Assembly: GCA_016183065.1 (NCBI GenBank)
Contig: JACPFF010000026.1
Location: 4,476-68,475 of the forward strand
Reading direction: 5' to 3'
DNA length: 64,000 nucleotides
Source of the DNA: Deltaproteobacteria bacterium
GTDB taxonomy: Bacteria; UBA10199; GCA-002796325; JACPFF01
Positions 38,391-54,834 of the stretch are shown piece after piece (the stretch's first letter is position 1; each line of letters starts with the position of its first letter). Below the pieces are notes generated by a model. That model did not search any database. It was not told the origin of the DNA and saw only the letters and a program-made list of their open reading frames with translations. The position numbers and the translations under genes were made by a program.

Positions 38391-39059
38391 TCAGTTGTCG
38401 ACCACGCCCTGCGCTGCGATGGCAAAGGCAGAGACAAAATTTCCGTGCGTGGCGGTACGATAATGGCATTCCCATGGTCCATAATGGGCCCGCCGATGGG
38501 GGTCATCCACACGGATATCGGTCAATCGTAGATTCGGGGTGGGTGGGAGCGCCTTGAGGCAGGCTTCCTTGATACACCAGAGTACCTTGCGGCGTGACGG
38601 CACGATGCGGTCATGTGGATGCCATATTCCATGTTGCATAGAGTGGAGTCTGTCGCGGCATTCAATGTCACAGCCGATACCAATACGACCGAGGTAACGC
38701 GCGTGCACATGCGCAATGACAGCAAAACACCATCCCGCTGCATGTGCCAGTGTGACGACAAATGGGCATCCCCTGTTGCGACAGCGCAACTGCGGATCGA
38801 AACTATGTCGGTGTCGTCGATTCGTGACTGACGATAATGCGTAGAGCGTCTGTGCGATCCACCATCGGCCAAATAACCGTTCAGCACGACGATCGGGATG
38901 GCGCTGCGTTTGAATATGTGCCCATTCGATGTCGTCAAAACAGGATCGATATGCCTCTTCCGGCATATGCAGCAGGATGGGACCTACATACACCTGTTTA
39001 ATGTGCAGCGGTGGTCGCATGTGCAAGAAATACTCTGTTGTGTGTAAGGCGCAGCCCAA
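38391..39059 (-). CDS. Sfp-type 4'-phosphopantetheinyl transferase
   Basis: VTLAHAAGWCFAVIA...RIGIGCDIE (G.D.E motif) and LWCIKEACLKAL (W.xKEA.xK motif). Start uncertain (39059 or 39020). Confidence 0.7.
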   Translation of the reverse strand: MGCALHTTEYFLHMRPPLHIKQVYVGPILLHMPEEAYRSCFDDIEWAHIQTQRHPDRRAERLFGRWWIAQTLYALSSVTNRRHRHSFDPQLRCRNRGCPFVVTLAHAAGWCFAVIAHVHARYLGRIGIGCDIECRDRLHSMQHGIWHPHDRIVPSRRKVLWCIKEACLKALPPTPNLRLTDIRVDDPHRRAHYGPWECHYRTATHGNFVSAFAIAAQGVVDN

Positions 39060-40272
39060 GATAGATTGGGATCATCATGACAATGGCCGCGTGCAGAAGA
39101 AATGAGGTGATCAGGAGGGGCATGGAGGCATGGTGTGCGGTGAGCTGTAAGAACCCGCGTGCCACGATCATGGCTGCTGCAAAGATGGCGGCGACCACAT
39201 ACCCTTTCTGATCTGACTCAAGAAGATATCGACTGACATGCATACCACCCATAAAGGGAATCAAGGCTGCGTCAGTCCAGATCACTATGGTCAGCGCGTG
39301 CACGGCGTCCTCGAGATGTGGCGTACACAGAGAGAGAATCTGCTCCACATGCGTGAACACGCGGTATGCGAGGAAGACCGTCATGCCGATCCAGAGGAAA
39401 AGTGCTGGCGATATCGGTCGAATGTGCGACCAGTGAAACATCGCATGGTCGTGTTGGCGGCGTTGCGCGAGAACTTGACCGAGGGCAAGTGCGGGAATGA
39501 GGAAGAATGGTTTGAGTTGAAACCAACCGGCAAACACCCCAACGTAGGCGGTATCCCACTGACCGACGATGCCATTGAGCCAATGACGGTCCAGTGCGAC
39601 GACAGACCAACTGAGGATCAGGGGAATCGAAAATCGACTATAGAGATGCAGAGAGTGTCCCTGCAGTGTGCAACGCCACAACGCGCGGTGCCAGGGTTGT
39701 AGCAACAGAAACCAGACGATGGATTCCAGGACTGCCACGTATGCCATCGTGTGCGCCCATGTCGAGGTGTCGAGCAGGTCGTGCAGTGCGCACCATATGG
39801 CCATGCCGATCGTGATGCACAGAAACGCGAAATTCGCACGATAGATACGACGAAATGCCCCACGCGCACGCAAAATACCAATACAGCCTGCTGAGGCAAT
39901 GCTGAGTGCCGCCATGATGAACAGCGGTCGAGCGATCAGGGTCATTTCAAATGTCGTGACACCCCCTGGTTGATACAGAAAACCACCAGCATAGTACATC
40001 AGTGCCAGGCTCGCTTGCCAGGCAAAGAGTGCCACGATGTTGGTCTGTGACTGTCGGCCGATCAGATAAAAGATCGCCATTTCCGTTCCCTCGGCAATGG
40101 CGAACCCCAGGAGGAGATAGGGGAGGAGCAGTCCGTAGACAATGATGGCACGGTCCGAGACTTGGGCAAAGACCAGACACATGACGAGCGGTGAGGCATA
40201 TGTGGCGGCAAATCCTTTTGTGCTATGCCATAATGTGCACAGCATCTCGTAATTGTGTTTCCACAGAGACAT
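38998..40272 (-). CDS. About 12-TM membrane protein, possibly a MOP/MATE-superfamily exporter
   Basis: Hydropathy pattern and N-terminal ATYASPLVMCLVFAQVSDRAIIVYG resemble MATE-like lobes. Weak. Confidence 0.35.
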   Translation of the reverse strand: MSLWKHNYEMLCTLWHSTKGFAATYASPLVMCLVFAQVSDRAIIVYGLLLPYLLLGFAIAEGTEMAIFYLIGRQSQTNIVALFAWQASLALMYYAGGFLYQPGGVTTFEMTLIARPLFIMAALSIASAGCIGILRARGAFRRIYRANFAFLCITIGMAIWCALHDLLDTSTWAHTMAYVAVLESIVWFLLLQPWHRALWRCTLQGHSLHLYSRFSIPLILSWSVVALDRHWLNGIVGQWDTAYVGVFAGWFQLKPFFLIPALALGQVLAQRRQHDHAMFHWSHIRPISPALFLWIGMTVFLAYRVFTHVEQILSLCTPHLEDAVHALTIVIWTDAALIPFMGGMHVSRYLLESDQKGYVVAAIFAAAMIVARGFLQLTAHHASMPLLITSFLLHAAIVMMIPIYLGLRLTHNRVFLAHATTAAH

Positions 40273-40273
40273 A

Positions 40274-41212
40274 TTATTGTAGCCGGCGGAGTGTCAGACC
40301 AATGATGACCTCGCCGGGTTCGATGAATAGACACAGACATCGTGTGTTATTTGGCATATCGCTCTTGGCAAGCATCGCCAGGATTTCCAATCCATGGGCC
40401 ATGCCACAGCAACCGTTGTGCCACGCCATACCGGTACGTACGTGCGAAAATTGTTCCAGCACGAGCGGAGCACACGCGGGATAAATGACCTGCGAGCATG
40501 TCGGTGGATGCTGGCGAAAAAAATGCGTCAGCTGTGTCATCGTGTCATCCAACATCATGTCCCATGCATGATCAGCCCAGGCGAACGGGTGTGGATGATA
40601 ATATGCGATACAATCTTCATACACATACGTCGGTCCTTCTGATGGAATATCTGTCGAGACAGATACCACCCCCGCAGCATCCGAAAGCCATCCCAGCGGC
40701 GAGAAGGCGCGATGCGCTGGCGCAAGGACCCGTTCAGCCCCCACAATGAGGCTCGTCGCAGAGGCCGATTGAGACTGGACCCAGTCAATGGTTTCCTGGA
40801 ATGCGAGGCCCCATGTGGCGCCTCCCTGGTATTCTACCGTAAATGTCTCCGATGCCCGAATACCGGTGATATGTTGCAACCATGCCGCAGGGCATATGTG
40901 CAAATCTTCCGGGAAGGTCTGATGGCAGTAGACAAATTGTTGGCAGGAAGCGTGTGGATAGGCCTTCAATACTGCGGCGGCCAGTTCGACCTGACTCAGG
41001 CGAGGGCTTTGCACAAATGCGTGAGACCGTCCCTCCCACGCCATCGGAGGGACATGGTGGCGAGGTAACAGTCCATGGGTACACAAATGCAAATAGTGTA
41101 ACGAATCAAAGGGATCTTCGCTATGACCTTCCAGATATTCTGCCCAGGATCTGAGGGATAATACCTCACCAACCGGTAGTACGGATGGTGTATGGATATA
41201 GACATCATGCAT
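40274..41212 (-). CDS. KASIII (FabH)-like thiolase-fold protein lacking the nucleophilic Cys
   Basis: TFTVEYQGGATWGLAFQETIDWVQS...SLIVGAERV and LSDAAGVVSVS parallel FabH A-A-C-S-G-F...VVGAE and GDGAGA blocks, but the Cys position reads GGAT. Confidence 0.5.
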   Translation of the reverse strand: MHDVYIHTPSVLPVGEVLSLRSWAEYLEGHSEDPFDSLHYLHLCTHGLLPRHHVPPMAWEGRSHAFVQSPRLSQVELAAAVLKAYPHASCQQFVYCHQTFPEDLHICPAAWLQHITGIRASETFTVEYQGGATWGLAFQETIDWVQSQSASATSLIVGAERVLAPAHRAFSPLGWLSDAAGVVSVSTDIPSEGPTYVYEDCIAYYHPHPFAWADHAWDMMLDDTMTQLTHFFRQHPPTCSQVIYPACAPLVLEQFSHVRTGMAWHNGCCGMAHGLEILAMLAKSDMPNNTRCLCLFIEPGEVIIGLTLRRLQ

Positions 41213-42488
41213 ATCCGGTAACCAGCTGTTGGCCCTTTGCGAGAGTACGCCATGTCATTTGGGGACTGAGCATATGGATACAGCCGTTGCTGCCAGCCCA
41301 TTCTGCGGGAAAACCCTCAAGGGCGCGCCATACCGCGCTGGTCGTTGGTCCATAGGCTCCCGAGTTGAGAAAGACGAGGTAATCGCCGATGGCCAAACGA
41401 GGTGCTGTTACACGGGTGGGCCATGGAAGACGCTGTCCATGGAGACGGTACGAGACGGCAGTTGGCAGCTTTCCACGTTTCCAGCCGTCACGATGCAGCC
41501 CGGCACCAAGAAAATGGCGATTCTTTGCGAGAAAACTTCCCGCGGATAATCCGTGAAGGGCTGGTGTCGCCGCGACTTCCACCTGTTGCAGGTCGCCGTC
41601 CATTGCGACGTGTTGCACGCGTGCAAAAAAACACCCCGCCGGACCGATAATATAACGGCCTGACTCCAGGTAAAACAGGCAGGGCGGGAGTCCGGTCGCG
41701 TGATAGGCGCGGACATGTTCCTGTACTGCCTCGGCGAATGATTCAAATGCGCACTCATGCTCGTCTTCGTAGTAGGGAATGCCGAGACCTCCCCCGACGT
41801 CAACTTTGGTGCATATGGCGCCTGTCTGACCAAACTGACGCGCCTGCGCGATGACCTGTCCTACGTTCCATGCTGCATCCGTTGCGGAGGCAATCCGAGT
41901 CCCCACATAGATATGGATGCCACAGACCTGGAGAGGAGATTGTCGATGGATGGCATCGTGCATGCAGTGAAGGGCCTCATCGCGTTCGAGACCAAATTGT
42001 GTGGTGCGACCCCCCATCGCCATGCGAACGCCCCGAACCTCGTACGTAGGATTAATGCGCACGATGGCCGTTGTCGGACATCGACGCGTGGTGGCAATAT
42101 GCCGCAACATGTGGAGCTCGGACGCGGATTCCACGGCAACCGCGCCGATCTGGCGCTCGACCGCTAGAGTGAGCTCCGCACTGCTCTTTCCGGGGCCGAC
42201 AAAACAGATGGTTTCCGATGCAAATCCACTGCGCAACGCCAGTAATAACTCTGCACCAGAGGAGACATCGGCCCCACACCGTTCCTGCGCCAGCAATGTG
42301 AGGAGCGGCGGCGCTGGATTCGCCTTGAGTGAATAGAGCAGATGCATATTCTCTGGCAGTGCGCTCTGCATCGTGCGCACACGTGATCGTACGATGTCCA
42401 TATCATAATAATAGCCTGCCGTCAGCTCAGCGGTGACACATGCCGTGTAGAGTGCTCGTCCATTGTGATGTGCGTCGCACAGATGCAT
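41205..42488 (-). CDS. PLP-dependent fold-type III decarboxylase (Orn/DAP/Arg decarboxylase family), PLP-Lys present
   Basis: LLYSLKANP, GIHIYVGTRI, VDVGGGLGIPY, ESGRYIIGPAG and GDYLVFLNSGAYG. Start chosen at MHLCDAHH (ATG 42488, GGAGGA 9 nt upstream). The GPxCxxxD loop is absent. Confidence 0.75.
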   Translation of the reverse strand: MHLCDAHHNGRALYTACVTAELTAGYYYDMDIVRSRVRTMQSALPENMHLLYSLKANPAPPLLTLLAQERCGADVSSGAELLLALRSGFASETICFVGPGKSSAELTLAVERQIGAVAVESASELHMLRHIATTRRCPTTAIVRINPTYEVRGVRMAMGGRTTQFGLERDEALHCMHDAIHRQSPLQVCGIHIYVGTRIASATDAAWNVGQVIAQARQFGQTGAICTKVDVGGGLGIPYYEDEHECAFESFAEAVQEHVRAYHATGLPPCLFYLESGRYIIGPAGCFFARVQHVAMDGDLQQVEVAATPALHGLSAGSFLAKNRHFLGAGLHRDGWKRGKLPTAVSYRLHGQRLPWPTRVTAPRLAIGDYLVFLNSGAYGPTTSAVWRALEGFPAEWAGSNGCIHMLSPQMTWRTLAKGQQLVTGYA

Positions 42489-42516
42489 TGTCGACATTCC
42501 TCCATTGTCATGAGTG

Positions 42517-43455
42517 CTACTGCGCTTGTACGAGGAGACCGCCCCAACTTGCTCCCATGCCATAGGTCAGTGCGAGGGCGTAGGTCGATGTCGGTGGATG
42601 CTGCGCAACGAATTGCATCAACCCCAGCACGCAATCCGTTCCAAAAAGATGCCCCAAGGTCTCCATCTCCCGCTGCAGTAGGATCTGGCCGTGAAATTGC
42701 AAAAGCTCTCGGATACGCTGCCATGTCACCGGATTGCTGATATGGGGAATCACATGTGCAACCTGCTCAATGGTGATCCCATGCCGGACTAAGAGCGCAT
42801 GAACGAGCGAACGGAGGGTGAAAAAATATCGCCAGCTGAGTTCATCGCCAGCTCCACTCATGTCATATCGCGATGCATCGGTGATCACGTGCGTTCCCAC
42901 ATACGCGATTTCCGCGGGGGCATGGCTCAGAATCACCGCTGACGCCGCATCGCCCTGGATCACGCCGTTGCCCAATGTGCGGTGCGTCGTAAAATCCACA
43001 ACGTCGACCGTGGCCACCAACACGTGAGAATATGGCCGTGTCGTCAACCAGTGCGCAGCCTGTCGCATGGCAGCAATAGTGCCTGAACACTGATGTCCGC
43101 CGAGATGCAGGTATGGTCCCGAAACGCCAATGGGCTGCAATATGGATCGAACAAGAGAGCGTCCAGCGGGGAAGTGCGTCATCGGCAATGTGCAACAAAA
43201 TACGGTGCCATCAATTATTGTCGCCGGCATCGATGCCCGTTCGAGCGCACCCGTAATGGCCTCACGCAGCAATGACATCTTTGCATCGGCCGACCATGCT
43301 GCCAGACATGCGACGGTGCGATCATGACCTGCTGTTTCTTGCGTTGCAGAGATGCCCTCTATACGCATGATCGCACGACGCAACCGTCGCACCGTCCCCG
43401 TGACGCTATAGGCACCATGTACATAAATCCGACGTTGACGCTTCTGCTGATTCAT
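42517..43455 (-). CDS. KASIII-like condensing enzyme/acyltransferase (Cys present)
   Basis: Start MNQQKRQRRIYV in ATGA overlap with the upstream stop. GGHQCSGTIAAMRQAAHWL (Cys box), GDAASAVIL, HVIPHISN, GHLFGTDCVLGL. Confidence 0.6.
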   Translation of the reverse strand: MNQQKRQRRIYVHGAYSVTGTVRRLRRAIMRIEGISATQETAGHDRTVACLAAWSADAKMSLLREAITGALERASMPATIIDGTVFCCTLPMTHFPAGRSLVRSILQPIGVSGPYLHLGGHQCSGTIAAMRQAAHWLTTRPYSHVLVATVDVVDFTTHRTLGNGVIQGDAASAVILSHAPAEIAYVGTHVITDASRYDMSGAGDELSWRYFFTLRSLVHALLVRHGITIEQVAHVIPHISNPVTWQRIRELLQFHGQILLQREMETLGHLFGTDCVLGLMQFVAQHPPTSTYALALTYGMGASWGGLLVQAQ

Positions 43456-44429
43456 GGATCCACGGGATCTGCTGAGAGAAATGGCGAGGGAACCTGCTGG
43501 ACCGGAACAAGGGAGCCATGCGTATAGAGCATCTCGAGCGGCGCGGGATGGCTGATAAAATACAACGGGCTTCGATAGTGCGCACTGCCGGCATTCGGCA
43601 GTGCGATCAGATCGCCTGGGTGAAGTGCAGGAGCGGGTATATCGACCGCCAACAGATCTTGCGGCGTACACAGCGGTCCACAGAACGTGGTTGGACGCAC
43701 TGTCGCCTCTGCTGCACTGTACGGGAAGAGTATCGGGTACTTCTTGCGCAACGCATTTCCCCGTTGTCCGGCATCCCAGAGCACGTTTGTTCCACCACTC
43801 ATGATTGCATACTGACGTCCGTGGACCTGCTTCACCGTGCGTACCACCAGCCACAAGGTACAGGCCTGATGCAGCAGTGCTTCTCCATGGAACACCATGC
43901 AGCGAATGTCATGATGTTCGCAGAACTGTTGTATGCAATGTGACAGAGCATCATGGTCCTGGATTGATGCCCCCCGCGCATCAACAAGCCATTGTTTAGG
44001 GCGTTGTGCGATAGACCGCAGGGGTGCGCATTGAATGAGCTTCGGCAGGACATGATGGGGAATACAGGCGATCGAGTGAGAGGCTGGACAGGATGCCAGT
44101 GCCAGCCGTGTCCAGTCTTCTGGGGATTCGATCCACAGAGCATGCTCATTCAGACAGCACACGTCAGATGGCGGAATATTCGTCAACTGAAGATAGGAGA
44201 TCCACGCTGTTGTCGGAATGACGACATGGCAGCACAGCTGTTCGTGAATCCGTCGCACAACGGCAAGGGTTGGCTCTGTTTGGAGGTCGTACACATGCCG
44301 TATCCATGGGGGATATTGCTGCCCCACTGTGCGGCAGTTTGCCTCCAATTGTGGGATGTCAACAACGACAAACGCCTCCTGGCCGCGTCGTACCCACTGC
44401 GTCAGTTGCTCTAGGTAGGGAAACTGCAT
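43452..44429 (-). CDS. Degenerate fold-type III decarboxylase paralogue (PLP-Lys replaced by Gln, Cys loop retained)
   Basis: HVYDLQTEPTLAVVRRI aligns to LLYSLKANPAPPLLTLL. FHGEALLHQACTLWLVVRTVKQVHGRQYAIMSGGTN aligns to the EPGR region. FCGPLCTPQDLL and GDLIALPNAGSAHY are retained. Confidence 0.6.
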   Translation of the reverse strand: MQFPYLEQLTQWVRRGQEAFVVVDIPQLEANCRTVGQQYPPWIRHVYDLQTEPTLAVVRRIHEQLCCHVVIPTTAWISYLQLTNIPPSDVCCLNEHALWIESPEDWTRLALASCPASHSIACIPHHVLPKLIQCAPLRSIAQRPKQWLVDARGASIQDHDALSHCIQQFCEHHDIRCMVFHGEALLHQACTLWLVVRTVKQVHGRQYAIMSGGTNVLWDAGQRGNALRKKYPILFPYSAAEATVRPTTFCGPLCTPQDLLAVDIPAPALHPGDLIALPNAGSAHYRSPLYFISHPAPLEMLYTHGSLVPVQQVPSPFLSADPVDP

Positions 44430-44457
44430 GGCGGTTATGCGTACACGGTATCAGACT

Positions 44458-47644: not shown

Positions 47645-47675
47645 CGTTCCTCCTTTCGTGTGCAGAATGAAAATG

Positions 47676-49755: not shown

Positions 49756-49767
49756 GGCATTCGTCCC

Positions 49768-50769
49768 TTATTGGTGATATCGCAGACGCAAATCCGCCAA
49801 TCCGGTCACAGCGCGTACTTTGAATGGGGCCGCAGGGTTCGTGGCCACGTCAACGTGGACATCTGACAGGCCACTTTTGATGGTTGGGGCCACGACGGCC
49901 CCTTCGGGGAATTCAAGCGTGGAATCTGTGGCACCCGCACGAATGTCGACCTCTCCGGACGACGGCATCTGTATCCAGCGGAGAAACAATTCTCCCAGCC
50001 CTGTGCGGACCTCGACAGTTGACGAGCGGATCTCTCCCCAAAGGGTTCCCACGCCAACTTTTACTGCAAGTGGGCCTGCCAGGTTGGTGAGATGGAGTGT
50101 CCCTTTGCGCACTTCGGCAGTGATCGCAAGGCCCGAGGGGACCATGAGACCGACATCCACCTCGCAATCACCAGGATCCAGCACGGCCTTCTCGGTTTTG
50201 ACAACGATGCTATCTGCTTCCGTCGTCACTTCGGTTTGGCAGCTTGGACTGCTCTTGCGTGGGTAGGTGCGCAGCTCGATGGTGTCTGTCGCAATACCGG
50301 CGACATGTACCACGCCCACATCATGCCGCACAGTGAGGTGATCGACCTGCACTGCCGGAATCACCCGTGTGATATCGGGTGCCGTACTGGTGTCAAAGAC
50401 AAAAGCGGCATTTCGACCGGTTGTTTCTGCGACCTCTGTGGACATGTCGCGCTGTGTGCCGACGAATTGCGTAACGCTTGCGCGAAAAGATGCAACCGCT
50501 GCACGCACATTGTGCTCGACGGTGTGCGCCACACTGGTGGCAGTATTGCGTGCCGTCGCCCATATGGTTTGTTCATCCCAGCGGGAAGCCAATGCTCTGG
50601 TCCCGCCAAGCCATTGCATGGCCGTCTGTACCTCGTCGACCGCTTCAACCACATGGTCAACAAAAGATGCGGCGGTTTGTTGCACGCCAGATGTCACGTC
50701 AGCGATGAATCGCTCGATGTAACATGCGGGCACATTTGTACTGCTACTGCAGGTGCGTAGGTCTCCCAT
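49768..50769 (-). CDS. DUF4097-like beta-helical protein, no obvious signal peptide
   Basis: Repetitive V.V....G.L.G.I....V.V.TG.G strands (LAVKVGVGTLWGEIRSSTVEVRTGLGELFL) typical of the putative-adhesin DUF4097 fold. Confidence 0.5.
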   Translation of the reverse strand: MGDLRTCSSSTNVPACYIERFIADVTSGVQQTAASFVDHVVEAVDEVQTAMQWLGGTRALASRWDEQTIWATARNTATSVAHTVEHNVRAAVASFRASVTQFVGTQRDMSTEVAETTGRNAAFVFDTSTAPDITRVIPAVQVDHLTVRHDVGVVHVAGIATDTIELRTYPRKSSPSCQTEVTTEADSIVVKTEKAVLDPGDCEVDVGLMVPSGLAITAEVRKGTLHLTNLAGPLAVKVGVGTLWGEIRSSTVEVRTGLGELFLRWIQMPSSGEVDIRAGATDSTLEFPEGAVVAPTIKSGLSDVHVDVATNPAAPFKVRAVTGLADLRLRYHQ

Positions 50770-50852
50770 GAGACACCTCCTTTGGTGTTTGGTCAGGTAA
50801 GCAAGTGAATATCGCCATCAGTCAGCAATACGAACGATGCCGCGGAATGGTG

Positions 50853-51539
50853 TTATGATGACTGCGGATACTGCAGTGTGACGCTGCCAAAACCCACCTT
50901 GGCCTGCAGCAAAAACCCCGAGGTGCTACTGGTTTGTAATGCATTGATAATGCGACCAAAACCTTGCACGAGGTCCGGTCGGATGGTCGTGCCGCGGGGA
51001 AAGGTCAATGTTACGACCCCAGCGCCCGCCTTGATGGCGAGAATTCCGCGCTGTGGCACGTGGCCCCAGACAAGGTCGACGTGGCCCGCGCCCAGCTTGA
51101 TGTGGGTGTCCTCCGAATCGATGGTGCCTCGGACATGGCCCGCACCCATGTTAATATGCAATGGCCCCCGGAGATGCGCGAGCTGCACCCTGCTTGCTCC
51201 ACTGTCGGCACGCACCGCCAGTGTGCGCGGCATCGTGACCACAAGATCCACCTCACAGCTCAGGCCGGAAAAGAGGGCATGTGCGGTTTTCACGAGCACG
51301 GTGTCTCCTTCCGTGCGCACTTTTGTCAGACAGCTGAGTCCGCCTTTGACCTTCTCTGCCCGCACGTGAATCGTCTCTGTTTCCATTCCTTCGATCCGCA
51401 CCGTCCCTTCCTCGTGCTTGATCCATACGGTTGTCACGCCTGCCTGCGGAACGGTGTGATCCAGCAACACCTCACCGGCACGCGCAAGACTGCTCCACGA
51501 CAGAGCGCTGATCATGATTGTGACCATCAAGTAGAGCAT
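50853..51539 (-). CDS. DUF4097-like beta-helical protein with signal peptide
   Basis: Start MLYLMVTIMISALSWSSLARA with GGAGG RBS. Same strand-repeat pattern (LHINMGAGHVRGTIDSEDTHIKLGAGHVDL). Confidence 0.5.
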   Translation of the reverse strand: MLYLMVTIMISALSWSSLARAGEVLLDHTVPQAGVTTVWIKHEEGTVRIEGMETETIHVRAEKVKGGLSCLTKVRTEGDTVLVKTAHALFSGLSCEVDLVVTMPRTLAVRADSGASRVQLAHLRGPLHINMGAGHVRGTIDSEDTHIKLGAGHVDLVWGHVPQRGILAIKAGAGVVTLTFPRGTTIRPDLVQGFGRIINALQTSSTSGFLLQAKVGFGSVTLQYPQSS

Positions 51540-51571
51540 ATATACCTCCTCAGTATGCGTACGGCTGCGTC

Positions 51572-51823
51572 CTAAAACGGAACCTCGTTCATCCACTGCA
51601 TGGCACAGTGCCACCATCCATTATCGGCCACCACAGGCCAGCCGTCAGTGACCGCCTTCATTGCCTGCGCAACATGACCAATGAGCAGTGCCAATGCAAC
51701 CACGAAAGTCAGGCCAGGGACAAGGAAGATCACAAGGTTGATCAGGAGCACGATAAGGATCAACAACATCACGAATAAGCTGATGAATGCCAGGGTTGTC
51801 ATCAGGACCTCCATGACGGTCAT
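51572..51823 (-). CDS. Small 2-TM membrane protein
   Basis: LAFISLFVMLLILIVLLINLVIFLVPGLTFVVALALLIGHV. The start is one of several Met codons around the MATE stop. Confidence 0.4.
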   Translation of the reverse strand: MTVMEVLMTTLAFISLFVMLLILIVLLINLVIFLVPGLTFVVALALLIGHVAQAMKAVTDGWPVVADNGWWHCAMQWMNEVPF

Positions 51824-53190
51824 TGTACGGCGCATTGTGCGACAGCCACGTGCGGTCGTCCAACACGTTGTGATTGCATGAGCCGGCGGTAGGATCGGAT
51901 GAACCAGATGGCCTCCACTGCATGCAAGACATGTGACCATGGTAAGATATACCGCAACGCCATTGGCCCCATCACGGGCACGATGATCAGATAGGGAAGT
52001 AATCGGCCAAAGACCACGACGATCACCAAGGTGATGAGATTGGGATAGGTCTTCCCCGTCCCTTCAAAGGCTCCCTGACCAATAAATCCGAGGGCAAGAA
52101 ACGGAAATCCGACGACCTCAGACTGAAAAACGAGAACGGCAAATTCACGGGCCCCGGTGGCATCGGGAGCCAGCAGCGATAAGGCCGGCGCGATTCCACA
52201 ATAGCAAATGATGACCAGACCTATATATGCGAGCACGATAACACGAAATGTGGCGGACACACCATGCCACGCGCGGGCTATTTGTCCGGCCCCAAGGTGC
52301 TGACTGACAAAAATGCTTATGCCAACACTGATGGCAATGGCGGGGAACAGCGCCATGGTGCGGACTCGTTCAAGAAGACCAAGGGCAGAGAGCGTTTCTG
52401 TGCCATAGTGGGAAAAAAATCCGACGGTCATTCCGGCCTCGATGGCCCCCAGAAGATTGCCTGCCATTACCGGCACGGCCATCAACAAAAATTGCCGCAG
52501 CCATCTCTGAGAAACGGCCATCCATCGCGCAGGACGCCCGCGGATGGCCAAGCAACGCATATAGACCGCGGTGCACACTACCGAAATCCACATGGCGACA
52601 ATCGTCGAAAGTCCGATGCCACTGATGGAGAGATGGCCCGACCACAATAACGCGCCTTGGAGCGCGACTTTGGTCCCTATGAACGTCAGGGATCCAACAT
52701 AGGACGGTGAAGTATGGCCAGTCCCACCGCACAGGGCCGCTTGATAGGCCCGAACGCACCAGGGAACGATGCTGGCCACAAAGCACAAGGCATAGAGGGT
52801 AAACCCCTTCGAGACTACGGGAGACATGGTGAACACTCGAGGCGCAATCGGGAGCAGGGCAAATCCGCAGACGGTCACGAGGAGGCCCACTCCCACGAGA
52901 AGCCCCCATCCCGTATCGCGCACCTCTGCTAATTGCTGCGGGTCACGCGTTCCCACCGCCCGGCCAATCAGTACGATCAATGGGATACTGAATCCTTCCA
53001 GCACCGCATACACGACAAAGAGGCAGGGCGACAAATAGGTGGCTACCGCAATATAGTCGGCTGTGAGTCTTCCCAAAAAATAGATATCGACCGAGAGCCA
53101 GAGGCTATTGATCACCATGCTGGCGAAAATTGGTGCTGAAAGTCGTGCAATGGCACGACCGATCGGTTGCGTTGTGATATCGTCTCTCAT
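51820..53190 (-). CDS. MATE-family efflux transporter
   Basis: Start MRDDITTQPIGRAIARLSAPIFASMVINSLWLSVDIYFLGRL in ATGA overlap with the upstream stop. 12 TM with a two-lobe repeat. Confidence 0.75.
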   Translation of the reverse strand: MRDDITTQPIGRAIARLSAPIFASMVINSLWLSVDIYFLGRLTADYIAVATYLSPCLFVVYAVLEGFSIPLIVLIGRAVGTRDPQQLAEVRDTGWGLLVGVGLLVTVCGFALLPIAPRVFTMSPVVSKGFTLYALCFVASIVPWCVRAYQAALCGGTGHTSPSYVGSLTFIGTKVALQGALLWSGHLSISGIGLSTIVAMWISVVCTAVYMRCLAIRGRPARWMAVSQRWLRQFLLMAVPVMAGNLLGAIEAGMTVGFFSHYGTETLSALGLLERVRTMALFPAIAISVGISIFVSQHLGAGQIARAWHGVSATFRVIVLAYIGLVIICYCGIAPALSLLAPDATGAREFAVLVFQSEVVGFPFLALGFIGQGAFEGTGKTYPNLITLVIVVVFGRLLPYLIIVPVMGPMALRYILPWSHVLHAVEAIWFIRSYRRLMQSQRVGRPHVAVAQCAVQ

Positions 53191-54122
53191 GGCAGTTGCG
53201 TAATGAAATGATCGATAGCGGTCAGAAAATTTTCGGGTTCCTCTTGGAATGGATTGTGTCCCGAGTGGGAAAATATGATGCGTTGGGCATGGTGTATCGC
53301 CTTCCAATAGGTCTCCAGACACGCGCGATCGACAATGCGATCATGCGTGCCACCGATGACCAACGTCGGACACTCGACACGAAGCAGTTGCGGGGTAATA
53401 TCCCTCGTCATGACGCTGTGATATTCGCAGGCTGCGAACAAGGTGTCATCGGCATCCTGCAGACTGTTCGCATCATATTCCCCGGTGCTAAGCGTGCTGC
53501 GGATATTGGCCTCCATGGCCGTGCGAGTGGCATCGTGGTCCCGATAGTACAAACCCGCGATGCGAGCATAATGGAACAACTGTGTAAATCGCGCGAATCC
53601 CAATGGGAGTTGAGTAATCCGTGTCAGGTTGTGCAGGGCCTTGGCATTGTCAGAGAAAAAACCCCGGAGATGGCAGAGGAGATTATACAGCATCTCCGGA
53701 AACGAGGCGGGCCCGCACACGTTGATCAACGCCCGTGTCCGTCGGGGCATCTGACTGGCAAAGAGCCCGGCGAGCATGCCGCCCCACGAATGTCCCATGA
53801 CAATCATCGGTGGAAGGGCAAGCTGCTCATGCATGTGGCACAGGCCCACAAGGAATGCATCCGGATCATGATCCTCGCACGGGATGTCTCGTGGAGAATG
53901 TCCACATCCCGGTTGATCCACCCATAACACCGTGTAGCGGGCTTCCAAGAGGCGACCACAACAGGCAGAAAAGTATGCACAGTTGTCACCGGGTCCCCCG
54001 TGGAGAAATAGGACGACGGGTTGATCCGTTGCGTGGCGGACCAGTCGGTAGGCGAATGGTGGACTGGTGCGTGTAAACTCCCACTGAAATCTGTCTTGGG
54101 CCCCCTCGATCATGCAAGTCAT
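53187..54122 (-). CDS. Alpha/beta hydrolase, proline iminopeptidase-like (S33)
   Basis: VVLFLHGGPG oxyanion block, GHSWGG nucleophile elbow, C-terminal SGHNPF His. Alternative start at 54173. Confidence 0.75.
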   Translation of the reverse strand: MTCMIEGAQDRFQWEFTRTSPPFAYRLVRHATDQPVVLFLHGGPGDNCAYFSACCGRLLEARYTVLWVDQPGCGHSPRDIPCEDHDPDAFLVGLCHMHEQLALPPMIVMGHSWGGMLAGLFASQMPRRTRALINVCGPASFPEMLYNLLCHLRGFFSDNAKALHNLTRITQLPLGFARFTQLFHYARIAGLYYRDHDATRTAMEANIRSTLSTGEYDANSLQDADDTLFAACEYHSVMTRDITPQLLRVECPTLVIGGTHDRIVDRACLETYWKAIHHAQRIIFSHSGHNPFQEEPENFLTAIDHFITQLP

Positions 54123-54136
54123 TGTCGGCAGTTTCC

Positions 54137-54700
54137 TCAGTGGTCGTGCGTGATCCTGGGGCGGGTAATGCATGCGAGATCCAACCGAATGCGCTTATTA
54201 TCTAACGAAACACAAATTGTTGCGCGGTGTTTTCGTTTGGAGAATTTGAGAATCATCCCTTCTTTTCCCTGTAAGGGGCCTGAGATAATATGTACGCGAT
54301 CGCCCTGTAACTCACCATGGGAGAGCCCCGCTGTCCCCGTATTGCCGGTTAACGCCTGCAGCAGATCCATTTCATGCGATTGCACGGGAATTAGTGACTC
54401 TCCGAGGCGGACAGGGCCATACATACTGTCAGGCCTGTTGTCGATCACGTGCCGCAGCACAGTTGGAGCACATTGAATAAATGCGTATCCCGGATAGAGC
54501 GGTCGTCGGCGTAACTGAAATGCTCCCCGATGGTATTCCAGCAACAGACGCATGGGTTGGAATATGCGGATGATTTTTTGCCCGAGACGTTGTCGCAATA
54601 TCTCCAAGCCCTGTGTTGTGGCCCGTTGTTGAAACGCCAATGCCCACCATGCCTGTTGTGACTGCGTGTCTATTATGCCCTCTCTTTCATGTGCCGTCAT
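54137..54700 (-). CDS. Specialised NusG-family paralogue (NGN + KOW), first gene of the biosynthetic operon
   Basis: NGN: WWALAFQQRATTQGLEIL...RRPLYPGYAFIQ. KOW: GDRVHIISGPLQGKEGMILKF. Alternative start at 54715. Confidence 0.7.
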   Translation of the reverse strand: MTAHEREGIIDTQSQQAWWALAFQQRATTQGLEILRQRLGQKIIRIFQPMRLLLEYHRGAFQLRRRPLYPGYAFIQCAPTVLRHVIDNRPDSMYGPVRLGESLIPVQSHEMDLLQALTGNTGTAGLSHGELQGDRVHIISGPLQGKEGMILKFSKRKHRATICVSLDNKRIRLDLACITRPRITHDH

Positions 54701-54818
54701 ATGTACGACATCCATAGACCTTAGAGTGCGGCCGGGGTTTTTTCTGGATGTGCCATTCGTGCCGTGGTTGCCGTAACAAACGCAGACATGTCGTGACGCA
54801 ATTCTGATGTTTTGGATT

Positions 54819-54834
54819 AGCAAGCACCGTGCCA
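54819..54834 (-). promoter_or_regulatory. Sigma-54 (-24/-12) promoter
   Basis: Minus strand reads TGGCACGGTGCTTGCT, which equals the consensus TGGCAC-N5-TTGCW. It lies 119 nt upstream of the NusG-like ATG and 40 nt after the preceding stop. Confidence 0.75.

What the first reader, a model, noticed from the sequence alone, without database searches (positions are those of the whole stretch)
38391..54834. Orphan 18-gene biosynthetic operon without PKS or NRPS, built around a free ACP, on a lower-G+C island
All ORFs from 54700 down to 38391 are on the minus strand. Their junctions are ATGA/short overlaps or gaps under 90 nt. Spot G+C counts are about 47-53% here versus 60-65% in the flanks, and the composition changes at the convergent junction 38352/38391 and near 54.9 kb. 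The gene order is:
1. NusG paralogue
2. alpha/beta hydrolase
3. MATE exporter
4. 2-TM peptide
5. two DUF4097-like proteins
6. ACAD beta and ACAD alpha
7. KASIII-like A
8. ACP
9. unknown 199-aa protein
10. ATP-grasp ligase
11. decarboxylase-like (Lys to Gln)
12. KASIII-like B
13. decarboxylase (Lys present)
14. KASIII-like C (no Cys)
15. 12-TM protein
16. Sfp-type PPTase

There is no adenylation domain, no modular synthase, and no KS-alpha/beta pair. The combination suggests that an amino acid is ligated to the ACP, decarboxylated while tethered, condensed or transferred by KASIII-type enzymes, desaturated, released by the hydrolase and exported. I know of no characterised pathway with this exact gene set.
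Basis: partly seen in the sequence, partly recalled or inferred. Interest (0 to 1): 0.85.

Follow-up and report, generated by a model that had tools for sequence, protein, structure and literature searches.

The report
Carrier-protein amino-acid pathway without NRPS/PKS
This is a real 18-gene operon from an uncultured deltaproteobacterium that most likely builds a small amide-type metabolite on a free carrier protein without any NRPS or PKS; the chemical logic has recent precedents, but this version has an unknown product and an unusual decarboxylase whose catalytic residues are split between two proteins.

Summary
The "low-G+C island" is not confirmed (55.8% G+C against 58.8% and 54.4% in the flanks).

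The ATP-grasp + ACP + BtrK-like decarboxylase trio is the thiotemplated cassette of butirosin and closthioamide. KASIII-like transacylases plus an ACAD acting on beta-alanyl-carrier protein are known from bolagladin and AFC-BC11. Dunbar et al. (2020) flagged a large KASIII-associated family of such loci, none with a known product.

This sub-family has only three relatives in public data. Its new features are:
- The decarboxylase is split. One paralogue keeps the PLP-Lys and the other barrel motifs but has lost the GPLCTPxD loop. The other paralogue keeps only that loop. This predicts an obligate heterodimer with one composite active site.
- A second catalytic/degenerate pair, KASIII-B (Cys-His-His) with KASIII-C (Cys to Gly), and a third, ACAD alpha/beta.
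- Three perfect sigma-54 promoters (0.09 expected), an adjacent NtrC-type activator, and a LoaP-like first gene with a conserved leader element.

Verdict: a new variant of a known kind. Product, substrate and acyl donor are unknown. Interest 0.55.

The parts
56904..56919 (-). Perfect sigma-54 -24/-12 element in front of the activator gene.
   Evidence: TGGCACGAGAATTGCT, one of 3 perfect matches in the window against 0.09 expected. It lies 27 nt upstream of ATG 56877, below an AT-rich intergenic stretch. The GTG 56920 start listed by the ORF finder is therefore probably wrong.
55469..56877 (-). NtrC-type sigma-54 enhancer-binding response regulator (REC, AAA+ sigma-54 interaction domain, Fis-type HTH).
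   Evidence: Pfam: Sigma54_activat 4e-64, Response_reg 1e-20, HTH_8. Its link to the operon is inferred from adjacency and from the sigma-54 promoters.
54896..54919 (.). Perfect 24-bp palindrome, a candidate activator-binding site (UAS).
   Evidence: GTCCGATTGCTC|GAGCAATCGGAC, 100% complementary, 62-85 bp upstream of the -24 element. Its function is inferred.
54819..54834 (-). Sigma-54 promoter of the operon.
   Evidence: TGGCACGGTGCTTGCT, a perfect consensus. A near-consensus site, TGGCATGCGAATTGCT, sits at the same distance from the LoaP-like gene in L001.
54763..54783 (-). Conserved leader block, a candidate recruitment element for the antiterminator.
   Evidence: GCGTTTGTTACGGCAACCACG against GAGTTTGTTTCGGCAACCATG in L001 (18 of 21 identical), although the LoaP proteins are only 40% identical. 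No significant RNA structure was found. There are only two sequences to compare.
54137..54715 (-). LoaP-like NusG paralogue (NGN + KOW), first gene of the operon.
   Evidence: NCBIfam LoaP NF033641: E 9e-27, 94 bits, below the cutoff of 125 but the best of the NusG-type families. Pfam NusG/KOW. Orthologue in L001 at 40% identity.
53187..54122 (-). alpha/beta-hydrolase, the putative thioesterase or release enzyme.
   Evidence: Abhydrolase_1 2e-26; GHSWG nucleophile elbow. An alpha/beta-hydrolase recurs in the analogous Tritonibacter and Rahnella modules.
51820..53190 (-). MATE exporter.
   Evidence: MatE 2e-26; ATGA overlap with the hydrolase gene; 43% identical orthologue in L001.
51572..51835 (-). 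Uncertain gene.
   Evidence: One long hydrophobic stretch, long enough for two helices. No Pfam hit. No counterpart in L001.
50853..51539 (-). Toastrack (DUF4097-like) protein a, with an N-terminal hydrophobic anchor.
   Evidence: Exhaustive search: 671 relatives, and 7 of 10 sampled pass Pfam's DUF4097 threshold. N-terminal hydrophobic segment. Orthologues in L001 and L004.
49768..50769 (-). Toastrack (DUF4097-like) protein b, a paralogue of a with an N-terminal extension of about 130 aa.
   Evidence: 32% identical to protein a, E 1e-34. Orthologues in L001 and L004.
48772..49755 (-). ACAD beta: a degenerate acyl-CoA/ACP dehydrogenase paralogue without the catalytic Glu.
   Evidence: Only the C-terminal ACAD domain is detected. 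It has no [YLM]EGT motif. A large/small ACAD pair recurs in Streptomyces and Burkholderia loci.
47676..48821 (-). ACAD alpha: the catalytic flavin dehydrogenase.
   Evidence: All three ACAD domains. Best PDB hit 5lnx, 1.8e-47. ILEGTGEMQ catalytic-base motif. 65% identical in L001 and L004; 38.6% in Burkholderia L091.
46622..47644 (-). KASIII-like A: Cys retained, catalytic His replaced by Asn, third triad position not conserved. A putative acyltransferase.
   Evidence: hhalign against the KASIII-B family: probability 99.5%, E 7e-23. Its Cys aligns with the nucleophile of DpsC, its best PDB hit. Motif table.
46345..46629 (-). Free acyl carrier protein.
   Evidence: PP-binding 2e-9; DSL serine at residue 39-41.
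45749..46348 (-). Conserved protein of unknown function (199 aa).
   Evidence: 53% identical homologue P0038 and 36% in L004. Degraded or shorter in L001. No Pfam hit. AF2 model pLDDT 47. The Foldseek hits to ACAD-fold proteins are not significant and are not supported by hhalign.
44458..45708 (-). ATP-grasp ligase with a pre-ATP-grasp domain; the putative ACP loader for Asp or Glu.
   Evidence: PreAtp-grasp 1e-8 and CPSase_L_D2 1e-4, both above the gathering scores. Identical to NCBI MBI2344262.1. In 83 related loci it co-occurs with a BtrK-like decarboxylase in 81.
43452..44429 (-). Pseudo-decarboxylase: a BtrK paralogue that keeps only the CGPLCTPQD loop and the C-terminal domain.
   Evidence: Best PDB hit is BtrK, C-terminal part only, 3e-18. 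PLP-Lys replaced by Gln; the HxYxGT and GGG loops are deleted; ESGRY and SGAYG are degenerate; the Cys loop is invariant in 3 orthologues.
42517..43455 (-). KASIII-like B with a Cys-His-His triad.
   Evidence: ACP_syn_III plus its C-terminal domain. Alignment to FabH 2ebd and PqsD shows Cys and His conserved and Asn replaced by His. The same GHxFGxD motif occurs in Streptomyces and Burkholderia homologues.
41205..42497 (-). PLP decarboxylase: a BtrK-like barrel subunit that lacks the GPLCTPxD loop.
   Evidence: Best PDB hit BtrK, 1.3e-42, ahead of DAP decarboxylases at 1.7e-32. SLKAN, GGGLGIPY, ESGRY and SGAYG are present; the Cys loop is replaced by an unrelated longer loop in the window, L001 and L087.
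40408..40423 (-). Third perfect sigma-54 element, inside KASIII-C and 136 nt upstream of the 12-TM gene. A possible internal promoter.
   Evidence: TGGCACAACGGTTGCT. Not conserved in L001.
40274..41212 (-). KASIII-like C: a Cys-less (Gly-Gly) degenerate paralogue.
   Evidence: hhalign against the KASIII-B family: 92.6%, E 4e-7. Invariant GG at the nucleophile position. Only 2 homologues among 5.8 billion proteins. A Cys-less counterpart (Cys to Asp) occurs in Burkholderia L091.
38998..40272 (-). Membrane protein with 10-12 TM segments; probably a divergent MATE-like exporter.
   Evidence: 12 hydropathy peaks, some overlapping. hhalign against the MATE alignment: 92.5%, E 5e-7 over 361 co-linear columns. 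Compositional bias in membrane proteins is possible.
38391..39020 (-). Sfp-type 4'-phosphopantetheinyl transferase.
   Evidence: ACPS 3e-7, above the gathering score; WCIKEACLK motif.

Best explanation
This is a sigma-54-dependent operon that probably also uses processive antitermination. It encodes an NRPS- and PKS-independent, carrier-protein-templated ('non-canonical thiotemplated') pathway.

Steps supported by homology to characterised enzymes:
1. The Sfp-type PPTase primes the free ACP.
2. The ATP-grasp ligase attaches an acidic amino acid (Asp or Glu) to the ACP thiol through its side-chain carboxylate.
3. A BtrK-like PLP decarboxylase removes the alpha-carboxylate on the carrier, giving beta-alanyl- or gamma-aminobutyryl-S-ACP.

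New inference: the decarboxylase works as a heterodimer of two paralogues. One supplies the PLP-Lys barrel. The other supplies only the Cys/Asp loop that completes the active site in trans in this fold. The result would be one composite active site per dimer.

Steps inferred by analogy with bolagladin and AFC-BC11:
4. The ATP-grasp may iterate, adding further residues to the free amine.
5. KASIII-like A (Cys only, DpsC-like) and KASIII-like B (Cys-His-His, probably paired with the Cys-less C) act as transacylases that N-acylate or transfer the chain.
6. The ACAD alpha/beta heteromer desaturates the N-acylated aminoacyl-ACP to an enamide of the dehydro-beta-alanine type.
7. The alpha/beta-hydrolase releases the product.
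8. The MATE exporter and the MATE-like 12-TM protein export it.

The toastrack pair is envelope-associated and its role is unknown. The product is most likely a small N-acyl or oligomeric (dehydro)-beta-alanine/GABA amide. The substrate, the acyl donor and the product are not known.
For: - All domain assignments are verified.
- The decarboxylase's best solved relative is BtrK, the L-glutamyl-[ACP] decarboxylase (1.3e-42, against 1.7e-32 for DAP decarboxylases). All PLP-site motifs are aligned.
- In 83 loci that encode relatives of the ATP-grasp, a BtrK-like decarboxylase is present in 81, an ACAD in 70 and an ACP in at least 37.
- Characterised precedents: CtaD/E/F and BtrJ/I/K load Asp or Glu by the side chain and decarboxylate only the tethered substrate. 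BolN, BolM/P and BolQ and AfcP, AfcL/O and AfcE combine an on-carrier decarboxylase with KASIII-like transacylases and an ACAD-type dehydrogenase.
- A natural decarboxylase-ACAD fusion on a Tritonibacter plasmid links these two steps.
- L001 adds a glutamate mutase (MutE 1.6e-117) and a second ATP-grasp. This is consistent with acidic amino-acid substrates such as 3-methylaspartate.
- Reciprocal motif loss in the two decarboxylase paralogues is conserved in 3 + 3 orthologues. All 9 single-decarboxylase comparators keep every motif.
- KASIII residues. ACAD catalytic Glu in alpha only.
- Operon layout and promoters.
Against: - No CtaD or BtrJ sequence was available, so membership of the ATP-grasp in that family rests on domain architecture and gene neighbourhood, not on a direct comparison.
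- The cluster encodes no acyl-activating enzyme (no FAAL or acyl-CoA ligase), so the acyl donor for any N-acylation is unknown.
- The Cys-His-His triad of KASIII-B is the triad of elongating ketosynthases, so C-C bond formation cannot be excluded.
- Asp cannot be distinguished from Glu by sequence here.
- The heterodimer is inferred from motifs only.
- Co-transcription is inferred from spacing. A third sigma-54 site inside KASIII-C may drive the last two genes separately.
- The 199-aa protein and the toastrack pair have no assigned role.
Confidence: 0.7

Rival explanations
1. Amino-acid-primed polyketide-like route. The beta-alanyl- or GABA-ACP is a starter unit. KASIII-B (with C) extends it by decarboxylative Claisen condensation with malonyl-ACP or malonyl-CoA from primary metabolism. 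The ACAD pair and spontaneous cyclisation then give a lactam, pyrroline or alkaloid-type product instead of an N-acyl amide.
For: KASIII-B and its Streptomyces and Burkholderia homologues have Cys-His-His, the triad of elongating ketosynthases. KASIII-A's best solved relative is DpsC, a polyketide starter-unit enzyme. Distant members of the cassette sit next to KS/CLF genes in actinomycete loci.
Against: The window has no KR, DH or ER and no KS/CLF. KASIII-A lacks the His and Asn needed for decarboxylation. The characterised KASIII-likes next to BtrK-like decarboxylases (AfcL; BolM/P as proposed) make amide bonds.
Confidence: 0.2
2. The pathway makes an envelope or lipid modification, not a secreted metabolite. 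The ACP-bound amine-containing acyl group is transferred to a membrane lipid or surface polymer. The toastrack proteins and the two polytopic membrane proteins would be part of the envelope machinery.
For: The best NCBIfam family for both decarboxylase paralogues is the 'exosortase A system-associated' decarboxylase TIGR03099, although far below its cutoff. Two toastrack proteins, one with a membrane anchor, and two multi-TM proteins are conserved in the cluster.
Against: The decarboxylase scores 211 bits against a cutoff of 478 for TIGR03099 and is closer to BtrK. No glycosyltransferase, exosortase or lipid acyltransferase is in the cluster. A MATE exporter, a dedicated PPTase and a LoaP-type regulator are typical of secondary-metabolite clusters (background knowledge).
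Confidence: 0.07
3. A catabolic (beta-oxidation-like) operon for an amino or fatty acid. The ACADs and thiolase-fold proteins would act on CoA esters.
For: ACAD alpha scores best against generic acyl-CoA dehydrogenases and acryloyl-CoA reductase. KASIII-A shows weak thiolase-family hits.
Against: A dedicated ACP, an Sfp-type PPTase, an ATP-grasp ligase and exporters are present. No CoA ligase or transferase, enoyl-CoA hydratase or hydroxyacyl-CoA dehydrogenase is present. The thiolase-fold proteins are of KASIII type, with one Cys-less member.
Confidence: 0.02

Closest known systems
AFC-BC11 pathway of the Burkholderia cepacia complex (afc cluster; JACS 2025, PMC12186527)
   Same: It is NRPS- and PKS-independent, with stand-alone enzymes around one free carrier protein. 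Asp is loaded through its side chain and decarboxylated on the carrier by a PLP enzyme. There are two KASIII-like enzymes: AfcL forms the final amide bond and releases the chain. A BolQ-like dehydrogenase is expected to make dehydro-beta-alanine, and several membrane proteins are encoded in the cluster.
   Different: The afc loader is a VinN-type adenylating enzyme, not an ATP-grasp. afc also has a FAAL, a citrate synthase, a methyltransferase and desaturases, all absent here. The window has a split decarboxylase pair, an ACAD alpha/beta pair, a Cys-less third KASIII, a toastrack pair, and LoaP/sigma-54 control. No afc sequences were available for direct comparison.
Closthioamide CtaD/CtaE/CtaF and butirosin BtrJ/BtrI/BtrK cassettes (PNAS 2020, PMC7183216)
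   Same: An ATP-grasp ligase, a free carrier protein and a fold-type III PLP decarboxylase that accepts only the tethered substrate. The window's decarboxylase is closest to BtrK among all solved structures.
   Different: Closthioamide continues with a papain-like transacylase (CtaG) and a thioamide synthetase. Butirosin continues with hydroxylation and transfer to an aminoglycoside. Neither uses KASIII-likes or ACADs. Those systems have a single decarboxylase, and BtrK carries every motif in one chain.
Bolagladin dehydro-beta-alanine starter module (BolC/O/N/M/P/Q; PMC7756342)
   Same: A free ACP, a BtrK-like decarboxylase, two KASIII homologues proposed to N-acylate beta-alanyl-ACP, and an ACAD whose deletion gives the dihydro compounds.
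   Different: An adenylating loader is used, and the module feeds an NRPS. The window has no NRPS or C domain.
KASIII-associated family of uncharacterised CtaD-homologue loci (Dunbar et al. 2020), and the compositional analogue in Burkholderia cenocepacia NZ_CP091013 (L091)
   Same: The 2020 survey grouped most of about 400 ATP-grasp/PCP loci into a family with a KASIII-like protein (PF08541), none with a known product. L091 has an ACAD alpha (38.6% identical), an ACP, three KASIII-likes (one Cys-less and closest to KASIII-C), a BtrK-like decarboxylase and an ACAD beta.
   Different: The actinomycete and Paenibacillus members share only the ATP-grasp, decarboxylase, ACP, KASIII and ACAD at about 30% identity. 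They lack the pseudo-decarboxylase, KASIII-C, the 199-aa protein, the toastrack pair and LoaP. L091 uses an AMP-binding loader and a single complete decarboxylase.
Catalytic/degenerate paralogue pairs: ODC and DAPDC dimers with trans active sites, PqsBC, and alpha2beta2 ACADs such as ChsE4-ChsE5
   Same: From background knowledge: in fold-type III decarboxylases the PLP-Lys and the Cys loop of one active site come from different subunits. PqsB is a Cys-less partner of PqsC. Steroid ACADs pair a catalytic with a non-catalytic subunit. The window shows the same pattern three times.
   Different: I did not come across a natural fold-type III decarboxylase whose two half-sites are divided between two genes. 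No literature search was aimed at this question, so this rests on my own knowledge. None of the three pairings has been tested physically here.
LoaP, the NusG-paralogue antiterminator of antibiotic gene clusters
   Same: It is the best-scoring NusG-type family (E 9e-27). The gene has NGN + KOW and is the first gene of a long biosynthetic operon, with a conserved leader element downstream of the promoter.
   Different: The score of 94 bits is below NCBIfam's cutoff of 125. The promoter is sigma-54-dependent. The host is a deltaproteobacterial MAG.

Membership tests
BtrJ/CtaD-type thiotemplated ATP-grasp cassette (non-canonical thiotemplated pathways) | An ATP-grasp ligase encoded next to a free carrier protein. 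| tested here: met
   PreAtp-grasp and CPSase_L_D2 are above their gathering scores. The PP-binding ACP with a DSL serine lies two genes upstream.
BtrJ/CtaD-type thiotemplated ATP-grasp cassette (non-canonical thiotemplated pathways) | A BtrK/CtaF-type fold-type III PLP decarboxylase in the same locus. | tested here: met
   The best PDB hit is BtrK at 1.3e-42, and the PLP-site motifs align. The decarboxylase co-occurs in 81 of 83 related loci.
BtrJ/CtaD-type thiotemplated ATP-grasp cassette (non-canonical thiotemplated pathways) | Direct sequence homology of the ATP-grasp to CtaD or BtrJ. | not testable with these tools
   No CtaD or BtrJ sequence or structure is in the accessible libraries. 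The paper's table of 402 homologues is not held.
BtrJ/CtaD-type thiotemplated ATP-grasp cassette (non-canonical thiotemplated pathways) | ATP-dependent loading of the side-chain carboxylate of Asp or Glu onto the Ppant thiol, with decarboxylation only of the tethered substrate. | not testable with these tools
   This needs biochemistry. Indirect support comes from the glutamate mutase in the syntenic locus L001.
AFC/bolagladin-type dehydro-beta-alanine module | KASIII-like enzymes with a nucleophilic Cys next to the carrier protein and the decarboxylase. | tested here: met
   KASIII-A and KASIII-B retain the Cys.
AFC/bolagladin-type dehydro-beta-alanine module | An ACAD-type flavin dehydrogenase with a catalytic Glu. 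| tested here: met
   ACAD alpha has all three domains and the ILEGTGEMQ motif. A decarboxylase-ACAD fusion occurs in Tritonibacter.
AFC/bolagladin-type dehydro-beta-alanine module | A VinN-type adenylating enzyme as the Asp loader. | tested here: not met
   No AMP-binding domain occurs in the cluster or in the other large ORFs of the window. An ATP-grasp takes its place.
AFC/bolagladin-type dehydro-beta-alanine module | The product contains dehydro-beta-alanine. | not testable with these tools
   No product is known.
LoaP antiterminators (NusG paralogues) | The protein reaches the curated family score. | tested here: inconclusive
   NF033641 gives 94.2 bits against a cutoff of 125. It is the best among LoaP, UpxY, RfaH and NusG.
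Sigma-54-dependent operon with an enhancer-binding protein | A -24/-12 consensus upstream of the first gene and an adjacent bEBP gene. | tested here: met
   A perfect TGGCAC-N5-TTGCT site; 3 in the window against 0.09 expected; conserved position in L001; NtrC-type activator adjacent.
Toastrack (DUF4097) proteins | A match to PF13349. | tested here: inconclusive
   The direct hit is only E 0.15. By transitivity, the query finds proteins at E 1e-12 to 1e-21, of which 7 of 10 sampled pass the Pfam gathering score. I accept the assignment as probable.
Heteromeric (alpha/beta) ACADs | Adjacent ACAD genes of which only one keeps the catalytic base. | tested here: met
   The EGT motif is in alpha only, in the window, L001 and Burkholderia. 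Physical association was not tested.
Horizontally acquired genomic island | A clear compositional break at both borders, with mobility genes or a tRNA at a border. | tested here: not met
   G+C is 55.8% against 58.8% and 54.4%. The only tRNA is at 10051. The flanks encode cytochrome maturation and regulatory genes. Only a modest GC3 shift is seen (p 0.001).

The most novel reading that the evidence does not exclude
The two BtrK-like paralogues form an obligate heterodimer with a single composite active site: the PLP-Lys barrel from one gene and the Cys/Asp loop from the other. To my knowledge this would be the first natural 'split-site' fold-type III decarboxylase, and it would act on a carrier-protein-tethered amino acid. 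The operon as a whole would then make a new class of NRPS-independent oligo- or N-acyl-(dehydro)-beta-alanine/GABA metabolites in uncultured Deltaproteobacteria, using three catalytic/degenerate enzyme pairs.
Probability: 0.45. Interest if true: 0.7.

Novelty: new variant of a known kind. Interest (0 to 1): 0.55.

Why it matters
Thiotemplated pathways that work without NRPS or PKS megasynthases are missed by standard genome mining. Only a handful have been worked out: the butirosin side chain, closthioamide, the bolagladin starter unit and AFC-BC11.

This operon joins the ATP-grasp loading logic of the first two to the KASIII/ACAD logic of the last two. It therefore supports the idea that the loader is an exchangeable part of one widespread module. 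The adenylating-enzyme versions in Burkholderia, Rahnella and Tritonibacter, and the decarboxylase-ACAD fusion, point the same way.

The reciprocal loss of active-site halves in the two decarboxylase paralogues is a clean, testable prediction about enzyme evolution, because it amounts to a natural version of the classic ODC K69A x C360A complementation. It could also serve as a sequence signature for mining this sub-family.

The product is unknown. It comes from an uncultured lineage, so heterologous expression could yield new chemistry. However, orphan clusters are common, and the basic logic is no longer surprising.

Tried and rejected
- A scan of JGI metagenome contigs with the KASIII-C alignment found nothing.
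- The AF2 model of the 199-aa protein from a 2-sequence alignment had low confidence (pLDDT 47). Its Foldseek hits were nearly all ACAD-fold proteins but not significant (E >= 0.06). A profile comparison with the ACAD alpha family gave 0.5% probability. The idea that it is a detached ACAD middle domain is therefore dropped, and the protein is left unassigned.
- BLASTP between the paralogue pairs was too insensitive. Profile methods were needed.
- The leader RNA folds no better than shuffled controls.
- No Rfam family was found in 37500-57500.
- Terminator-like and sigma-70-like sites are not enriched.
- The supplementary table of CtaD homologues is not held, so the ATP-grasp could not be placed in that network.
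- Literature searches for a product of the actinomycete KS/CLF-linked cassettes or of the Burkholderia LuxR-linked cluster found nothing.
- The unannotated genes of the actinomycete cassettes are not detectably related to the window's KASIII-C, pseudo-decarboxylase or 199-aa protein.
- The 'psdeC' column mostly reflects hits to the C-terminal domain of the single real decarboxylase in those loci, not to a second paralogue.
- The small ORF 54874-55308 has an H-box-like motif by eye but no Pfam support.
- An exact look-up of the NtrC product as listed by the ORF finder found nothing, probably because its start is mis-set.
- I considered the island/HGT reading and a catabolic reading and rejected both (see the rival explanations and the membership tests).

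Full report
OBSERVATION. The region 38391-54834 contains 18 consecutive minus-strand ORFs. After the starts were refined, the junctions are ATGA-type or 8-nt overlaps, or gaps between -50 and +83 nt. Several genes have AGGAGG-type ribosome-binding sites.

- a NusG paralogue whose best family is LoaP;
- an alpha/beta-hydrolase (GHSWG);
- a MatE exporter;
- a degenerate and a complete ACAD;
- two KASIII-likes;
- a PP-binding ACP (DSL);
- an ATP-grasp with a pre-ATP-grasp domain;
- an Orn/DAP/Arg-type decarboxylase;
- an Sfp-type PPTase (WCIKEACLK).

Three calls that Pfam does not make directly were verified in other ways.
- 'KASIII-C without Cys' is supported by a profile-profile match to the KASIII-B family (92.6%, E 4e-7), with an invariant Gly-Gly at the nucleophile position.
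- 'Decarboxylase-like, Lys to Gln' is supported by alignment (YDLQTEP against YSLKANP).
- 'DUF4097-like' is supported by transitivity. An exhaustive search found 671 relatives, and 7 of 10 sampled pass Pfam's DUF4097 threshold. The two proteins are paralogues.

No adenylation, PKS or NRPS domain occurs in the cluster or in the other large ORFs of the window.

The compositional claim fails. The cluster is 55.8% G+C, against 58.8% on the left and 54.4% on the right. The 1-kb windows inside it are 52-59%. There is only a modest GC3 shift (0.586 against 0.665, p 0.001), which other parts of the window share. No tRNA lies at the borders, and no mobility gene appeared in the flanking ORFs that were scanned. 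The flanks encode multihaem cytochromes and CcmF/H on the left, and an NtrC-type activator, a methyltransferase and a hybrid histidine kinase on the right.

SOURCE AND RELATIVES. The ATP-grasp protein is identical to NCBI MBI2344262.1, from a MAG labelled 'Deltaproteobacteria bacterium'. The cluster is not unique.
- L001, a Logan metagenome contig, has an orthologue of every gene from LoaP to the PPTase except the 2-TM ORF, in the same order, at 26-65% identity. The match to the 199-aa ORF is weak (26%) and that gene looks degraded there. L001 also has a second ATP-grasp and a glutamate mutase (MutE 1.6e-117, plus a B12-binding subunit).
- L004 (another 'delta proteobacterium' MAG) and L087 are partial syntenic copies.
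- Beyond these three, the sub-family is very rare. KASIII-C has two homologues among 5.8 billion proteins, and none was found in the JGI metagenomes.
- A wider family does exist. A scan of 185,579 species genomes found 426 relatives of the ATP-grasp. In the 83 loci examined (the best 80 from that scan plus L001-L003), a BtrK-like decarboxylase is present in 81, an ACAD in 70, an ACP in at least 37 and a KASIII-B-like protein in 30. These loci are mostly from Streptomyces, Nocardia and Paenibacillus, at about 30% identity.
- In these distant loci the cassette is attached to KS/CLF genes, a C domain or sugar genes.
- The pseudo-decarboxylase, KASIII-C, the 199-aa protein, the toastrack pair and LoaP are confined to the small deltaproteobacterial sub-family.

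WHAT IS KNOWN.
- In butirosin and closthioamide biosynthesis, an ATP-grasp enzyme (BtrJ, CtaD) ligates Glu or Asp through the side-chain carboxylate to a free carrier protein. A PLP decarboxylase (BtrK, CtaF) then acts only on the tethered substrate. CtaD and CtaF iterate to build tri-beta-alanine.
- The window's decarboxylase is closer to BtrK than to any DAP decarboxylase (1.3e-42 against 1.7e-32).
- In bolagladin biosynthesis, a BtrK-like BolN is followed by two KASIII homologues proposed to N-acylate beta-alanyl-ACP, and by the ACAD BolQ. Deleting bolQ gives the dihydro compounds.
- In the NRPS-independent AFC-BC11 pathway, one free carrier protein, an iterative Asp loader, a PLP decarboxylase, two KASIII-like enzymes (AfcL forms the final amide bond and releases the chain) and a BolQ-like dehydrogenase build an N-acyl tri-(dehydro-beta-alanyl) peptide.
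- Dunbar et al. reported that most of about 400 uncharacterised CtaD-homologue loci fall into two families. One is defined by a KASIII-like protein, and none of its members has a known product.
- The window therefore belongs to a class that has been recognised bioinformatically, and whose individual steps have been shown in related systems, but which has never been characterised itself.

LOADER EXCHANGE AND FUSION. A tblastn search of annotated plasmids found the same module built around adenylate-forming loaders instead of the ATP-grasp.
- Rahnella plasmids carry a decarboxylase, KASIII, PCP, AMP-binding enzymes, an ACAD, an alpha/beta-hydrolase and a second KASIII.
- A Tritonibacter plasmid encodes the decarboxylase and the ACAD in one 812-aa CDS, in frame. 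This natural fusion links the two steps.
- A Burkholderia cenocepacia replicon carries ACAD alpha (38.6% identical to the window's), an ACP, three KASIII-likes (one Cys-less and closest to KASIII-C), an AMP-binding loader, a decarboxylase and an ACAD beta, next to a LuxR-type regulator. I could not link this cluster to a product.
- The composition 'one ACP, three KASIII-likes, a large/small ACAD pair, one BtrK-like decarboxylase' is therefore conserved across proteobacterial classes, while the loader is exchanged.

NEW FINDING: A SPLIT DECARBOXYLASE. Alignment with BtrK shows that the 430-aa paralogue keeps the PLP-Lys (SLKAN) and the HxYxGT, GGGxGxPY, ESGRY and SGAYG motifs. It has replaced BtrK's GPLCTPED loop with an unrelated, longer loop.

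The 325-aa paralogue is also closest to BtrK, but only in its C-terminal part (3e-18). It has lost the Lys (now Gln, Ser or Cys in the orthologues), the middle of the barrel, ESGRY and SGAYG. It keeps CGPLCTPQD unchanged.

The pattern is the same in three orthologues of each paralogue, from independent assemblies. All nine comparators with a single decarboxylase keep both halves in one chain. These are BtrK, five actinomycete loci, Burkholderia, Tritonibacter and Rahnella.

In fold-type III decarboxylases, the Lys and the Cys/Asp loop of one active site come from different subunits of the dimer. This is established for ODC (K69 and C360/D361) and for DAPDC, and is cited from my own knowledge. 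The simplest reading is an obligate heterodimer with one composite active site. This is an inference from sequence and has not been demonstrated.

OTHER ENZYMES.
- KASIII-B has Cys-His-His: the FabH Asn is replaced by His (GHLFGTD against GNTSAAS). The same holds for its Streptomyces and Burkholderia homologues.
- KASIII-A is a full-length KASIII-fold protein (99.5%). Its Cys aligns with the nucleophile of DpsC, its best solved relative. The His is replaced by Asn, and the third triad position is not conserved. This argues for acyl transfer and against decarboxylative condensation.
- KASIII-C lacks the Cys. By analogy with PqsB/PqsC it may be the non-catalytic partner of B (inference).
- ACAD alpha keeps the catalytic-base motif (ILEGTGEMQ). 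ACAD beta does not, in the window, in L001 and in Burkholderia.
- The cluster thus contains three catalytic/degenerate paralogue pairs.
- The 12-TM protein aligns co-linearly with the MATE family (92.5%, E 5e-7, 361 columns). It is probably a second exporter, with a caveat for compositional bias.
- The 199-aa protein is conserved but remains unassigned.

REGULATION. The window has three perfect TGGCAC-N5-TTGCW sites, against 0.09 expected by chance. All three are on the cluster's strand.
- The first lies 27 nt upstream of ATG 56877 of the NtrC-type activator, so the GTG 56920 start is probably wrong.
- The second lies about 104 nt upstream of the LoaP-like gene. Its position is conserved in L001.
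- The third lies inside KASIII-C, 136 nt upstream of the 12-TM gene. It is not conserved in L001.

A perfect 24-bp palindrome lies 62-85 bp upstream of the operon promoter and is a candidate activator site. The leaders of the window and L001 share an 18-of-21-nt block about 40 nt downstream of the -12 element, although the LoaP proteins are only 40% identical. This block is a candidate recruitment element for the antiterminator, but there are only two sequences and no significant RNA fold. Terminator-like sites are not enriched inside the cluster, and no Rfam family matches.

MECHANISM AND CONFIDENCE.
- Well supported by homology: ACP priming, side-chain loading of an acidic amino acid by the ATP-grasp, and on-carrier alpha-decarboxylation to beta-alanyl- or GABA-ACP.
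- Inferred by analogy: possible iteration by the ATP-grasp, N-acylation or transfer by the KASIII-likes, desaturation by the ACAD pair to an enamide, hydrolytic release and export.
- Unknown: Asp against Glu, the acyl donor (the cluster encodes no acyl-activating enzyme), the roles of the toastrack pair and the 199-aa protein, and the product.
- The main rival is a polyketide-like extension of the aminoacyl starter by the Cys-His-His KASIII (about 0.2). An envelope-modification role (0.07) and a catabolic role (0.02) are less likely.

VERDICT. The gene map is confirmed and the G+C island is not. This is a new variant of a known kind: an uncharacterised, rare sub-family of the non-canonical thiotemplated pathways. 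Its distinguishing features are a predicted split-site heterodimeric decarboxylase, two further catalytic/degenerate enzyme pairs, and LoaP/sigma-54 control. Interest is 0.55.

Noticed in passing
window 56904-56919, 54819-54834 and 40408-40423 (all minus strand): There are three perfect sigma-54 -24/-12 sites where 0.09 are expected by chance, all on the cluster's strand. One precedes the activator gene itself, which suggests autoregulation or a cascade and implies that the true start is ATG 56877, not GTG 56920. One lies inside KASIII-C and may be an internal promoter for the 12-TM and PPTase genes.
   Followed up: partly
window 54763-54783 (-) and L001 about 1828-1848 (+): An 18-of-21-nt block is conserved in the 5' leader downstream of the sigma-54 promoter, followed by a shared CAGAAAAAA. 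It is a candidate cis element for the LoaP-like antiterminator. Only two sequences are available, and no significant RNA structure was found.
   Followed up: partly
window 54896-54919 and 55155-55186: A perfect 24-bp palindrome and an 88% complementary 32-bp palindrome lie between the activator gene and the operon promoter. They are candidate enhancer-binding sites.
   Followed up: no
window 54874-55308 (-): A small ORF between the activator gene and the promoter contains an H-box-like stretch (IHDLRGTLQVVTGFLRWL) but has no significant Pfam hit. It overlaps the putative UAS and may be spurious.
   Followed up: partly
L089 9932-12370 (Tritonibacter mobilis plasmid NZ_CP015232): A single 812-aa CDS annotated as 'acyl-CoA dehydrogenase family protein' is a fusion of a BtrK-like decarboxylase (N-terminal) and an ACAD (C-terminal). 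It sits in a cluster with two KASIII-likes, an ACP, an alpha/beta-hydrolase and adenylating enzymes.
   Followed up: yes
L091 10656-21911 (Burkholderia cenocepacia NZ_CP091013, unannotated in PLSDB): A compact cluster: ACAD alpha, ACP, a Cys-less KASIII, a Cys-His-His KASIII, an AMP-binding loader, a BtrK-like decarboxylase, ACAD beta, an unknown gene, a KASIII and a LuxR-type regulator. It has the same composition as the window's core with the loader exchanged. No product could be identified.
   Followed up: partly
L001 11327-12646 and 14461-16338: The syntenic relative carries a second ATP-grasp and a glutamate mutase (MutE plus a B12-binding subunit) inserted into the operon. Its product probably also incorporates a 3-methylaspartate-derived unit.
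   Followed up: partly
window 45749-46348 (-): NCBI annotates only a 118-aa version of this gene (HYV02_08040), although homologues show that about 175-200 aa are conserved. The low-confidence AF2 model resembles the ACAD beta-barrel domain in Foldseek, but the hits are not significant and a profile comparison does not support the resemblance.
   Followed up: yes
window 57131-58021 and 62088-63458 (+): Just beyond the activator gene lie a SAM methyltransferase and, further on, an L-amino-acid-ligase-type ATP-grasp (LAL_C2) with very low GC3 (0.41). It is not known whether they relate to the operon. The hybrid histidine kinase at 58034-60679 is a candidate sensor for the NtrC-type activator.
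   Followed up: no
window 10941-13193 (+) and 16553-17560 (+): A 750-aa Cys-rich protein has a Dickkopf_N-type hit and an internal DNA repeat: the same TGGCACAGTGCCGGCA 16-mer occurs at 11435 and 11618. A separate 335-aa protein has a GRAS-domain hit. Both are unusual for bacteria and unrelated to the finding.
   Followed up: no
window 38391-54943, protein composition: The cluster's proteins are richer in His (4.7% against 3.1%, p 0.003) and Cys (2.8% against 1.9%, p 0.04) than the proteins encoded elsewhere in the window. This is unexplained.
   Followed up: no
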